4,776 bases of DNA from IMG/VR virus record IMGVR_UViG_2778261504_000020. One strand, given 5' to 3'. Positions 3,001 through 4,776 of the stretch are shown here, in pieces (within the stretch, counting starts at the first letter, position 1; each line of letters opens with the position of its first letter). The stretch is from a virus. Taxonomy: Duplodnaviria > Heunggongvirae > Uroviricota > Caudoviricetes. The position numbers were made by a program.

Positions 3001-4776
3001 TTAATGTAACGGTGTTTTTATTAAGTGTGTTTGCGTGGTGTTTTATGTTTTTTATAATTTTTTATTTTATTAAATTTAAAAGCATTAGTAATGGCTATTC
3101 TATATAGCAATATAAGAACTGTTACAAAAAAAGGGGGGCAATTACAGGTAGTTATGGATGATGAGTGAAACAGATATTGGAGAACCGGGGAATGAATGAT
3201 GTCTGAGTCTTATATATCAGAACTCCTTCGCTGTCGCTGGGGGCTCCTGTGCTTATGTCGTTTCCCCGATTCGGTTTTGAACGATTACCGAATGTTGAAG
3301 AATTATGCCAAAATATAGAAAGGATTTACTGCATGAATACCCAATATTTACAGTATGTTCGTGAGCAACTTATGGCAGCTACTGCTGACTTGAACGGAGC
3401 AACGAAAGGCCAGCTCGAAGCCTGGCAGGAGCATGCACAATTTGATACTGGTACATACAAACGAAAGAAGCCGCGCATTCTGGATGTGGTAACTGGCAAG
3501 ATGATTACGCTGGATAATACGCCGACTTCCGGTAAGCAGTCGTACGCAAAAGGTTCATCCATTGCTTTGGTCAGCCCGGTTGAATTCTCAACCTCTTCAT
3601 GGCGCCGCGCGGTTTTGTCTCTCGATGAACATCAGAAAGCATGGTTGCTTTGGTGTTACAGCGAAAGCGTTCGATGGGGGCATCAGGTCACCATAACGCA
3701 ATGGGCATGGAGCGAGTTTAAAGATTTGTTAAGTAACAGAAAAATTGCAGGTAAGACACTGGATCGCCTGAAGACGTTAATCTGGCTGGCTGCACAGGAT
3801 GTGAAGAGCGAACTTGCAGGGCGTGAGGCCTATGAATACCAGACACTGGCATCATTGGTGGGAGTGACAACAAAAAACTGGTCCGAGACATTTACTGAAC
3901 GCTGGGTTGCAATGAAGCACATTTTTCTACAGCTTGATAGTGATGCTTTATTGCTTGTGACGAGAACACGTTCAAAACAAAAGGCAGCATTTTTACAGCA
4001 AAATATTGCAAAACTGGATTAAAAGCCATATACTTCATGCAAATTTGGTATGTTGTAAAAAATGTATAAACCCGCTGCCGAGTGGGTTTTTTTTATGCCC
4101 TGAGTTGTACTTGTACGGTAAACATGCTGGCTGCTATGTAATAGAGTTTTTTTAGCCTGTAACCTCTTGACGGCATTGAATTGCTTTTGTTATGAGTTGT
4201 AAGCCAATGTTATCATCTTGTATTGGGGTGGTTATGAAGGATGGTGCGCTGCTCAGGAGTTCTTCACTTTTTATTGCCTACATGGGATGCCTTGGATGGG
4301 GGAGTGCTTATTTCTATGGATGGGGTACTTCTTTTTACTACGGCTTCCCATGGTGGATTGTAGGTGCAGGTGTTGATGATGTTGCCAGAAGTTTATTTTT
4401 TGCAGTTATCGTCATTGCTATATTTCTTATCGGTTGGGGTATTGGTGTTGTATTCTTTTTCGCAGTGAAAAGAAAACATTCTATGCAAGAGCTAAATGTA
4501 TTTCGCCTTTATTTTGCTGTGGAATTATTGTTTGTGCCGGCAATTATTGAGTTTTCTATATTGAGACAGAAGATTCAGGTACCTCTTTTGCTACTGTCAG
4601 CAGCGATTGCGCTGGCGGTTACAATTTCGATAAGATCTTATGGGCGATTTTTATCGGTATCATGCTTCTATGATAAGCCATTTATAAAAAAACATTTTTT
4701 TGAGATTGTGATGATTGCTTTTGTGGCATATTTTTGGCTTTTTTCATTTCTGACAGGATATTACAAACCACAGTTT

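What the first reader, a model, noticed from the sequence alone, without database searches (positions are those of the whole stretch)
4006..4094. Compact late promoter-terminator cassette predicting a roughly 50-nt terminated transcript
A near-consensus promoter (TTGCAA-17-TATACT) overlaps the end of the Q-like gene and is followed within about 55 nt by a strong intrinsic terminator. This is the architecture of pR'-qut-tR' units, with a -10-like TATGTT in the early transcribed region as a possible sigma70 pause site for Q loading. Without antiterminator the product would be a short abundant RNA; with it, transcription would proceed into the membrane-protein gene.
Basis: partly seen in the sequence, partly recalled or inferred. 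Interest (0 to 1): 0.5.

Follow-up and report, generated by a model that had tools for sequence, protein, structure and literature searches.

The report
Phage 82-type late promoter-terminator unit
This is the ordinary late-gene switch of a lambda-like prophage: a promoter, a built-in polymerase pause site and a terminator directly after the Q antiterminator gene, of the well-studied phage 82 type and identical to the copy in phage 434 and in hundreds of E. coli genomes.

Summary
Window 4006-4094 holds TTGCAA-17-TATACT, an AAA start at 4041, an extended -10-like element TGgTATGTT at +6..+14, and a hairpin plus 8-T terminator ending at +54. The gene upstream is a Pfam PF06323 Q protein, 88.6% identical to phage 82 Q. 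The cassette matches the experimentally defined 82 pR' at 41 of 49 positions from -35 to +14 and keeps G24/U25 at the +25 pause site.

Window 3100-4776 is 100% identical to phage 434, whose record annotates the terminator and a "Q82-like" antiterminator. At least 618 of 5,426 complete E. coli genomes carry the 3900-4300 stretch, including O157:H7 Sakai prophage Sp3.

Across 27 distinct relatives in more than 10 enterobacterial genera, the -35, the -10 and the sigma-70-critical bases of the pause element are invariant. Sequence after +17 falls into unrelated classes, yet nearly all leaders end in a terminator by about +80. All 112 scorable motif copies in IMG/VR lie downstream of a Q82-family gene.

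The local peculiarities are a short leader (RNA about 53-55 nt, hairpin starting 3 nt after the pause site) and GTA instead of GCC at +15-17. No transcript data were available. This is a known kind of element, of low novelty.

The parts
3333..4022 (+). Q antiterminator gene (229 aa), phage 82 family
   Evidence: PF06323 at E 1.1e-91 and PHROG 304 at 2e-108. It is 88.6% identical to phage 82 Q from X92588. The phage 434 record annotates it 'Q82-like'.
4006..4011 (+). -35 hexamer TTGCAA of the late promoter pR'
   Evidence: Found by the promoter scan. Information content is 1.5-2.0 bits over 27 distinct relatives. It is conserved in phage Flotzy, where it lies 30 nt past the Q stop and so is outside coding sequence.
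4012..4028 (+). 17-bp spacer, the inferred location of the Q-binding element (QBE); it contains the Q stop codon at 4020-4022
   Evidence: This placement is an inference. PMC4914094 places the QBE between the -35 and -10 and shows that 82 pR' -31..+30 suffices for Q action. The spacer is identical to the 82 spacer at 15 of 17 positions. A-29, A-28, A-23, A-19 and A-18 are conserved. Binding was not tested.
4029..4034 (+). -10 hexamer TATACT
   Evidence: Relatives have TATATT; A at position 2 and T at position 6 are near-invariant.
4041..4043 (+). Inferred transcription start (AAA; +1 = A4041)
   Evidence: The start is placed by register with 82 pR', whose wild-type transcript starts AAA (PMC5001585). 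It lies 6 nt after the -10.
4046..4054 (+). Sigma-70-dependent pause element: extended -10 TG (4046-4047) plus -10-like TATGTT (4049-4054), at +6..+14
   Evidence: The position and form match the 82 element (PMC5001585). Over 27 distinct relatives, +7 G, +9 T, +10 A and +14 T are invariant (2.0 bits), while +12 and +13 are free at 0.64 and 0.29 bits.
4063..4066 (+). Predicted pause site (+23..+26; most likely U at +25 = 4065)
   Evidence: Inferred from the 82 pause at +25/+26. G24, U25 and A26 are conserved between 82 and the window. Not measured.
4068..4094 (+). Intrinsic terminator tR': hairpin 4068-4089 (GC core 4071-4086) and T-run 4087-4094
   Evidence: dG -12.5 kcal/mol, z -3.9. The phage 434 record annotates a terminator at the equivalent of window 4071-4096. 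Equivalent terminators are present in 47 of 55 and in 90 of 95 distinct related leaders.
4041..4095 (+). Predicted short terminated leader RNA, about 53-55 nt
   Evidence: Inferred from the start site and the terminator. No expression data were available. It is not among the Hfq-bound sRNAs listed for Sakai Sp3.
4207..4776 (+). First gene downstream of tR': a membrane protein of unknown function (alternative start at 4234), running off the window
   Evidence: Annotated in the phage 434 and RefSeq records. It matches PHROG 1521 at 1e-110 and has no Pfam match. Further downstream are DUF3927, a SASA esterase, holin, endolysin and spanins.

Best explanation
Window 4006-4094 is the late-gene regulatory unit (pR' promoter, qut site and tR' terminator) of a phage 82-type Q module. 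It is the same allele as in phage 434 and in O157:H7 prophage Sp3.

Proposed mechanism:
1. Sigma-70 holoenzyme starts constitutively at about A4041.
2. Sigma region 2, still attached to the polymerase, re-binds the non-template TGgTATGTT at +6..+14. The polymerase scrunches on to about +25 (U4065) and pauses.
3. If Q (gene 3333-4022) is present, it binds its DNA site in the promoter spacer, engages the paused complex and rides with the polymerase, helped by NusA. The terminator hairpin that begins only 3 nt further on cannot then act. Transcription continues into the membrane-protein gene, the other morons, the lysis genes and the morphogenetic genes.
4. Without Q, transcription ends in the T-run and gives an RNA of about 53-55 nt.

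Shown here: the sequence elements, their register with 82 pR', their conservation, and their strict linkage to Q82-family genes. Inferred from published 82 and lambda work: initiation, pausing, Q loading and read-through.
For: Identity of the DNA and the protein:
- Window 3100-4776 is 100% identical to phage 434, whose record annotates a 'Q82-like' antiterminator and a terminator.
- At least 618 of 5,426 complete E. coli genomes carry at least 80% of window 3900-4300.
- Q matches PF06323 at E 1e-91 and is 88.6% identical to 82 Q.

Match to the published 82 pR':
- Loci L084 and L086, whose Q equals 82 Q, reproduce all published 82 pR' features. The window matches them at 41 of 49 positions from -35 to +14 and at G24/U25/A26 (PMC5001585; PMC4914094).

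Conservation across relatives:
- Over 27 distinct loci in Escherichia, Citrobacter, Klebsiella, Raoultella, Enterobacter, Leclercia, Franconibacter, Superficieibacter, Scandinavium and others, the -35, the -10, TG and T-A-T-n-n-T are conserved.
- The two positions of a -10 that sigma-70 reads least are free, and conservation collapses after +17.
- Terminators of 39 different hairpin sequences end at +51..+80 in 90 of 95 distinct leaders, and at +48..+82 in 47 of 55. The 82-class stem shows the compensatory series G-C, G.U, A-U.

Reverse test:
- Of 112 motif copies in IMG/VR with enough upstream DNA, 106 directly follow a Q82-family gene. The other 6 follow one at about 0.86 kb, with a gene inserted in between.

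Downstream genes:
- Late lysis genes lie downstream in phage 434, in Sp3 and in the closest full-length genome.
Against: - No RNA data were examined, so the start site, the pause and termination are unverified for this allele.
- The supplementary tables held for the Hfq-crosslinking study of Sakai list Sp3 sRNAs only at 901,332-901,662. They list nothing at the predicted 900,033-900,085.
- The window has GTA at +15-17 where 82 has GCC, and +17 is C in the other 26 of 27 distinct relatives. In 82, changing these bases to A cut pause half-life 2- to 5-fold (PMC5001585). Pausing, and hence Q loading, may therefore be weaker or shifted here.
- Within the window alone, the promoter and terminator matches are not above chance.
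Confidence: 0.9

Rival explanations
1. The short pR'-tR' RNA is not just a by-product but a trans-acting regulatory small RNA, as StxS is in Shiga-toxin phages. This would be in addition to the antitermination switch, not instead of it.
For: - StxS shows that a prematurely terminated pR' transcript can be an Hfq-binding regulator, and its authors suggest this may be common (PMC7547250).
- The predicted RNA has an 8-U tail after a terminator hairpin and a single-stranded A-rich stretch (GUAAAAAAUG).
- The allele is at least 99% identical in 630 of the complete E. coli genomes searched.
Against: - It is absent from the Hfq-bound sRNA list for Sakai, which does list two other Sp3 sRNAs.
- Nearly all of the 27 nt ahead of the hairpin is accounted for by the start site, the pause element and the pause site.
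- The leader after +17 is replaced by unrelated sequence in relatives.
- The high identity among E. coli copies is equally explained by recent spread.
Confidence: 0.1
2. The TTGCAA hexamer serves mainly, or also, as half of a CII-binding repeat (TTGC-N6-TTGC on the minus strand, 3998-4011). That repeat would drive a CII-activated antisense promoter (paQ-like) against the Q gene. CII binding there could at the same time block the pR' -35.
For: - The minus strand reads TTGCAATATTTTGC, a perfect match to the CII repeat. The phage 434 record annotates it as a CII site with a paQ -35.
- The repeat is kept in the E. coli 82-type and 434-type alleles despite changes in the N6 spacer.
- The closest full-length prophage encodes a lambda CII family protein.
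Against: - One such match is expected by chance in 72 of 200 shuffles.
- The second TTGC lies in a Gln codon, and the repeat is lost in most other genera, where that codon is CAG or the position is otherwise changed.
- No convincing -10 follows on the minus strand (direct reading of the sequence).
- TTGCAA is conserved with the same 17-bp spacing to the -10 even where the repeat is absent, and in Flotzy outside coding sequence. Its role as the pR' -35 therefore does not depend on this idea.
Confidence: 0.15
3. The hairpin and T-run are simply the terminator of the early (pR) operon after Q, and the promoter-like hexamers are fortuitous. Late genes would then be driven from elsewhere, for example from the promoter-like site at 4187-4216.
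For: - Promoter-like sites are not enriched in this AT-rich window (7 found against 11 expected).
- A second promoter-like site with a TG motif lies before the membrane-protein gene.
Against: - The hexamers, their 17-bp spacing, the start region and the pause element are conserved base for base in 27 distinct relatives and match the experimentally mapped 82 pR'.
- The motif is linked to Q82-family genes in 112 of 112 cases.
- The 4187-4216 site belongs to a separate mosaic module that is shared with phages carrying other Q types.
Confidence: 0.03

Closest known systems
Phage 82 late regulatory region (82 pR', QBE, sigma-70-dependent pause at +25, t82) with 82 Q
   Same: - The Q protein belongs to the same family and is 88.6% identical.
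- The -35 is the same, with the same 17-bp spacing; the -10 is TATACT here and TATATT in 82.
- The AAA start, TG at +6/+7 and the -10-like hexamer at +9..+14 are shared.
- G24/U25/A26 at the pause site are shared.
- 15 of 17 spacer bases, where the QBE is placed, are identical.
   Different: - +15-17 is GTA rather than GCC.
- The 82 leader hairpin at about +13..+37 is missing.
- The terminator is unrelated in sequence and much closer to the start: the T-run ends at +54 here against +78 in 82-type loci.
- The first downstream gene is a membrane-protein moron.
Phage lambda pR' - qut - tR' (6S RNA)
   Same: The logic is the same: a constitutive sigma-70 promoter just after Q, a -10-like pause element in the initial transcribed region, a QBE in the promoter, a terminator before the late genes, and a short RNA made in lysogens (PMC4914094; PMC7547250).
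   Different: - The Q family is unrelated; the literature treats Q-lambda, Q21 and Q82 as three separate families.
- Lambda pauses at +16/+17 rather than +25 and lacks an extended -10.
- Lambda terminates at +193 rather than about +54.
- A 29-codon remnant of a lambda-type Q actually survives at window 1683-1772.
StxS, the pR'-tR' small RNA of Shiga-toxin phages
   Same: It is also a short RNA produced by early termination of the Q-controlled late promoter in a lysogen (PMC7547250).
   Different: - StxS comes from a 258-nt pR'-tR' transcript processed by RNase E. It binds Hfq and has defined targets.
- The RNA predicted here is about 55 nt, shares no sequence with StxS, and has no evidence of Hfq binding or function.
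Phage 434 (OL657226.1) and E. coli O157:H7 Sakai prophage Sp3 (ECs_0815-ECs_0816 intergenic region)
   Same: - Window 3100-4776 is identical to phage 434.
- Sp3 shows a single difference across the 160 nt compared around the cassette (window 3976-4135): 7 T instead of 8 in the terminator tail.
   Different: - The records annotate Q and, in phage 434, the terminator, but not the promoter, start site or pause element.
- The nin region to the left of lpxR differs between the window and phage 434.

Membership tests
Lambdoid Q-dependent late regulatory unit, phage 82 subtype | A cognate Q gene of the 82 family lies immediately upstream | tested here: met
   PF06323 at E 1.1e-91, 88.6% identity to 82 Q, and the Q stop codon lies inside the promoter spacer.
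Lambdoid Q-dependent late regulatory unit, phage 82 subtype | A sigma-70 promoter at the 3' end of Q, with the 82 geometry (TTGCAA-17-TATAyT-6-AAA) | tested here: met
   Searches show the sequence match and its conservation. Promoter activity itself was not testable.
Lambdoid Q-dependent late regulatory unit, phage 82 subtype | A -10-like, sigma-70-dependent pause element with an extended -10 at +6..+14 | tested here: met
   TGgTATGTT is at 4046-4054. The sigma-critical bases are invariant in 27 distinct relatives and positions 4 and 5 of the hexamer are free. It is in register with the published 82 element.
Lambdoid Q-dependent late regulatory unit, phage 82 subtype | A GC-rich segment (+15-17 GCC) that supports and positions the +25 pause | tested here: not met
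   The window has GTA, and +17 is C in the other 26 of 27 distinct relatives. G at +15 and U at +25 are retained. This is a modulating feature of 82 pR' rather than a defining one: A substitutions there cut pause half-life 2- to 5-fold without abolishing the pause (PMC5001585).
Lambdoid Q-dependent late regulatory unit, phage 82 subtype | A Q-binding element between the -35 and -10 | tested here: inconclusive
   The spacer is identical to the 82 spacer at 15 of 17 positions.
Lambdoid Q-dependent late regulatory unit, phage 82 subtype | An intrinsic terminator between the pause site and the late genes | tested here: met
   Hairpin at 4068-4089 plus 8 T. The layout is conserved in relatives.
Lambdoid Q-dependent late regulatory unit, phage 82 subtype | Lysis and morphogenetic genes downstream on the same strand | tested here: met
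   In phage 434, Sp3 and NZ_CP148746.1, the same strand carries the membrane-protein gene, DUF3927, (SASA esterase), holin, endolysin, spanin and packaging genes.
Lambdoid Q-dependent late regulatory unit, phage 82 subtype | Q-dependent read-through, and a short terminated RNA without Q | not testable with these tools
   This needs transcription assays or RNA-end mapping. The relevant public data are GSE143631.
StxS-like regulatory sRNA from an antiterminated promoter | Hfq binding and accumulation in lysogens | tested here: inconclusive
   A look-up in the supplementary tables held for PMC4104026 found Sp3 sRNAs only at 901,332-901,382 and 901,574-901,662, and none at 900,03x. Absence from a list is weak evidence.
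Rfam RF02074 STnc240 | Score at or above the family's gathering threshold | tested here: not met
   The match scores 28.2 bits against a threshold of 55, with E 0.37. STnc240 is a core-genome Salmonella sRNA located between yeeY and yoeI (PMC8825220). The match is to the terminator and an A-rich run.

The most novel reading that the evidence does not exclude
The most novel reading not excluded has two possible parts.

1. The compact 53-55-nt leader of this very widespread allele is a functional small RNA in lysogens, including EHEC.
2. The palindromic TTGCAA is shared by the pR' -35 and a CII-activated antisense promoter. CII would then both silence Q and occlude the late promoter from a single site.

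A lesser point is that the unique GTA at +15-17 and the hairpin starting 3 nt after the pause site make this a natural minimal template. Q would have to become termination-resistant within about 30 nt.
Probability: 0.1. Interest if true: 0.45.

Novelty: new member of a known kind. Interest (0 to 1): 0.17.

Why it matters
The value is mainly for annotation. The result places the late promoter, start site, pause element and tR' of phage 434 and of the Sp3/CP-933K-type prophages, whose records mark only Q and, at most, the terminator.

It also shows that the 82-type qut signature can be recognised from sequence across many enterobacterial genera.

This allele could serve as a compact natural template for work on Q82. 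That family has no solved relative in the PDB by sequence.

The GTA variant at +15-17 offers a natural test of the published role of the GC-rich segment in sigma-dependent pausing.

None of this changes current understanding of Q antitermination.

Tried and rejected
- **Rfam search of the whole window.** The only match was STnc240 at E 0.37, well below its threshold. The literature shows STnc240 is an unrelated core Salmonella sRNA, so the match was rejected as chance.
- **Published evidence for the transcript.** No paper mentions ECs0815 or ECs0816. The Hfq-CRAC tables list other Sp3 sRNAs but not this one. HnrS (EcOnc10-12) lies in Sp9, Sp10 and Sp12, not Sp3. Supplements for the dRNA-seq/Term-seq paper and for the 82Q paper are not held.
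- **Exact 82 QBE sequence.** It was sought in two papers but only its approximate location could be obtained.
- **CII site.** Tested for significance in the window and found not significant on its own.
- **Independent promoter at the pause element.** I considered that TGgTATGTT is an extended -10 promoter in its own right. I rejected this because the homologous 82 element is an experimentally proven pause site and sits in fixed register with the upstream promoter.
- **Small ORFs in the leader.** ATG-TTG-TAA at 4050 and a 13-codon ORF from 4062 across the hairpin both lack ribosome-binding sites, and the listed 49-aa ORF at 4006-4155 is not conserved.
- **Structure prediction of Q.** Not run, because the family assignment was already unambiguous.
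Full report
**What is in the sequence**

The window reads, from 4006: TTGCAA (-35), 17 bp, TATACT (-10, 4029-4034), TCATGC, AAATT TGG TATGTT GTAAAAAATGTAT, and then AAACCCGCT-GCCG-AGTGGGTTT followed by TTTTT.
- The Q-like ORF stops at 4020-4022. The -35 therefore overlaps its last codons and the stop lies in the spacer.
- The hairpin at 4068-4089 folds at -12.5 kcal/mol, z = -3.9. The T-run is 4087-4094.
- Taken alone, the promoter and terminator matches are not above chance in this AT-rich window: 7 promoter-like sites against 11.0 +/- 3.1, and 2 terminator-like sites against 3.5 +/- 1.8. 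The case therefore rests on comparison with relatives.

**Identity of the region**

- Window 3100-4776 is 100% identical to phage 434 (OL657226.1). That record annotates the ORF as a 'Q82-like' transcriptional activator/antiterminator and marks a terminator at the equivalent of window 4071-4096. It marks no late promoter. [quoted passage not shown]
- The 3900-4300 stretch is found in 1,236 of 5,426 complete E. coli genomes. In 618 of them at least 80% of it is covered, nearly all at 99% identity or more.
- Carriers include O157:H7 Sakai prophage Sp3, between ECs_0815 (Q) and ECs_0816. There the cassette differs only by 7 T instead of 8 T in the tail.
- The whole window is 99.7% identical to a lambdoid prophage in several E. 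coli genomes, with this gene order: CI/Cro/CII, O/P, nin genes, a truncated lambda-type Q remnant, lpxR (minus strand), ylcG, Q, the cassette, a membrane-protein gene, DUF3927, a SASA esterase, holin, endolysin, Rz and packaging genes.

**The protein**

The 229-aa product of 3333-4022 matches Pfam PF06323 (Phage_antiter_Q) at E 1.1e-91 and PHROG 304. It is 88.6% identical, without gaps, to phage 82 Q from X92588. No PDB chain resembles it by sequence.

**Match to the characterised 82 late promoter**

Published work on 82 pR' states the following (PMC5001585):
- The wild-type transcript starts AAA.
- The pause-inducing -10-like element is closer to consensus than lambda's and includes an extended -10.
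- +15-17 is GCC.
- Sigma-70 engages at a transcript length of 21 nt, and the complex pauses at +25/+26 with a terminal U. The surrounding text implies G at +24 and no G at +26.

PMC4914094 adds that the QBE lies between the -35 and -10, and that 82 pR' -31..+30 carries both a functional QBE and the pause element.

Two IMG/VR loci, L084 and L086, encode a Q 100% identical to 82 Q. Their downstream DNA is TTGCAA-17-TATATT-TCATAT-AAATCTGATATTTTGCCAATGTTGTAC, which fits every one of these statements.

The window aligns to this DNA without gaps:
- 41 of 49 positions are identical from -35 to +14, including 15 of 17 in the spacer.
- G24, U25 and A26 are also shared.
- Only 8 of 16 positions are identical from +15 to +30.

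**Comparative test**

Searching with the Q protein returned 20 loci from one-genome-per-species contigs. They span Citrobacter, Klebsiella, Raoultella, Enterobacter, Leclercia, Franconibacter, Superficieibacter, Scandinavium, Pseudescherichia, Escherichia and Shigella, with Q identity of 50-71% to the window's Q. It also returned 80 viral contigs. Several phage records were added: PhiR47_2, PPompW/Stx2a phages, Enterobacter ENT1 and Flotzy.

Information content over 27 distinct promoter regions was as follows:
- The -35 TTGCAA scores 1.5-2.0 bits, and the -10 is TATATT.
- +7 G, +9 T, +10 A and +14 T are invariant at 2.0 bits, and +6 T, +8 A and +11 T are near-invariant.
- +12 and +13 score only 0.64 and 0.29 bits. 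These are positions 4 and 5 of the -10-like hexamer, which sigma-70 reads least. This is the signature expected of sigma-70 region 2 recognition, not of general sequence conservation.
- In phage Flotzy the Q gene (33% identical) stops 30 nt upstream of TTGCAA. The -35 is therefore conserved outside coding sequence.

After +17 the sequences fall into several unrelated classes, but a terminator follows in nearly all of them:
- In 47 of 55 distinct leaders the T-run ends at +48..+82.
- In an independent set retrieved by motif, 90 of 95 distinct leaders have T-runs ending at +51..+80, with 39 different hairpin sequences.
- The 82-class stem shows the series G-C, G.U, A-U at one pair.

The reverse test asked whether the motif predicts a Q gene. 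Of 112 copies with at least 700 nt of upstream DNA, 106 directly follow a Q82-family gene of 40-100% identity. The other six have a Q82-family gene 0.86 kb upstream, with an ORF6N-like gene inserted exactly at the TTGCAA.

**How this allele differs from 82**

1. It belongs to a short-leader class, together with Flotzy, L008, L017, L019 and L022. In this class the terminator hairpin begins at about +28, only 3 nt after the pause site, and the T-run ends at about +48-54. The 82-type loci end at +78.
2. The hairpin seen at about +13..+37 in 82-type and ENT1-type leaders is reduced to a weak AU/GU helix at 4048-4067, worth about 2.8 kcal/mol.
3. +15-17 is GTA. C at +17 is present in the other 26 of 27 distinct relatives. 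In 82, A substitutions at these positions shortened the pause 2- to 5-fold. The pause here may therefore be shorter or slightly shifted. G at +15 (the '-11 G') and U at +25 are retained.
4. A mosaic joint lies just before the terminator. Phages 2B8 and SfV carry other Q types and other promoters but share the terminator and the downstream sequence. This fits a unit made of Q plus pR' plus qut that travels together, and a separate late-gene module.

**Mechanism**

The best-supported reading is the standard one, summarised in PMC4914094, PMC5001585 and PMC7547250:
- Sigma-70 initiates constitutively at about 4041.
- Sigma re-binds TGgTATGTT and the polymerase pauses at about +25.
- Q bound in the spacer loads onto the paused complex. 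With NusA it makes the polymerase resistant to tR' and to later terminators.
- Without Q, an RNA of about 53-55 nt is released.

The sequence anatomy, its conservation and its linkage to Q are shown here. Initiation, pausing, Q binding and read-through are inferred from the 82 and lambda literature and were not testable.

**Rivals and side issues**

- *Functional small RNA.* An StxS-like role is possible in principle (PMC7547250). However, the Hfq-crosslinking tables for Sakai list only EcOnc13 (901,332-901,382) and EcOnc32 (901,574-901,662) in Sp3. They list nothing at the predicted 900,033-900,085.
- *CII site.* The phage 434 record annotates a CII repeat and a 'paQ' -35 on the minus strand at window 3998-4011. 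The sequence TTGCAATATTTTGC is a perfect TTGC-N6-TTGC and shares the palindromic TTGCAA with the pR' -35. One such match arises by chance in 72 of 200 shuffles, and the repeat is not conserved outside the E. coli alleles. It remains an open, secondary possibility.
- *STnc240.* The Rfam match (28 bits against a threshold of 55) is chance.

**Verdict**

The element is a member of a textbook class. It is essentially the phage 82 late regulatory unit in its phage 434/Sp3 allele, with a compact leader and a variant GC-rich segment. Novelty and interest are low. The useful outputs are the precise annotation and a few testable details.

Noticed in passing
window 1683-1772 (+): A 29-codon ORF (MRLESVAKFHSPKSPMMSDSLLATVYWFS*) lies directly after ninH. 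From memory it matches the N-terminus of lambda Q, and both the phage 434 record and RefSeq annotate it as an incomplete antitermination protein. The lpxR(-)/ylcG/Q82-type block therefore sits where a lambda-type Q was truncated.
   Followed up: partly
window 3998-4011 (-): TTGCAATATTTTGC is a perfect CII repeat (TTGC-N6-TTGC), annotated as a CII site with a 'paQ' -35 in phage 434. It shares the palindromic TTGCAA with the pR' -35. It is not significant on its own (72 of 200 shuffles give at least one match). It is kept in the E. coli alleles and lost in most other genera. The closest full-length prophage encodes a lambda CII family protein.
   Followed up: partly
window 3409-3426 (-): A weak terminator-like hairpin (GCCAGGCTTCGAGCTGGC followed by CTTTCGTT) lies on the minus strand inside Q. 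It could end a paQ-type antisense RNA if one exists.
   Followed up: no
window 4187-4216 (+): A promoter-like site, TTGTTA-18-TATCAT with a TG motif, lies just before the membrane-protein gene (start at 4207 or 4234). It may be a moron promoter that allows Q-independent expression. The phage 434 record marks a loose CII consensus at 4187-4200.
   Followed up: no
window 4207-4776 (+): The first gene after tR' encodes a multi-pass membrane protein with no Pfam family (PHROG 1521, unknown function). It is shared with phage 2B8 and with EHEC prophage Sp3 (ECs_0816).
   Followed up: partly
window 4055-4057; relatives L003-L026: +15-17 is GTA here. C at +17 is present in the other 26 of 27 distinct relatives, and 82 has GCC, a segment shown experimentally to support the pause.
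   Followed up: partly
L084 about +13..+37; L006 and L005 at equivalent positions; window 4048-4067: Long-leader classes carry a hairpin between the pause element and the terminator, with different sequences in different classes (UGCCA..UGGCA; GUCGCC..GGUCGAC). The window's short-leader class has only a weak AU/GU helix. Its function is unknown.
   Followed up: partly
L113, L114, L148, L175, L189, L213: An ORF6N-like (anti-repressor/KilA-type) gene is inserted between a Q82-family gene, whose match ends at residue 218, and the late promoter. The junction lies exactly at the TTGCAA -35.
   Followed up: partly
window about 4066-4069; L109 (phage 2B8), L110 (SfV): There is a mosaic joint just upstream of the terminator. 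Phages with other Q types and other promoters share the terminator and the downstream DNA. In 2B8 the homologous hairpin looks degraded (AACCTGCCGCCGAGTAGTTTTT).
   Followed up: partly
Sakai NC_002695.2 901,332-901,662 (outside the window, about 0.6-0.9 kb beyond its right end): The Hfq-bound sRNAs EcOnc13 (+) and EcOnc32 (-) lie in the ECs0816...ECs0818 intergenic region of Sp3. That region ranks first among the intergenic regions in the Hfq-crosslinking table of PMC4104026.
   Followed up: no
L032, L033, L035, L062, L070 (alleles of the window cassette): Natural variants of this cassette exist:
- T-run of 7 to 9 T.
- TATGCT as the -10 (L033).
- TATATT as the pause hexamer (L062).
- A terminator stem mutation, GAGTGGT (L070).

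None of them touches the sigma-critical bases.
   Followed up: no
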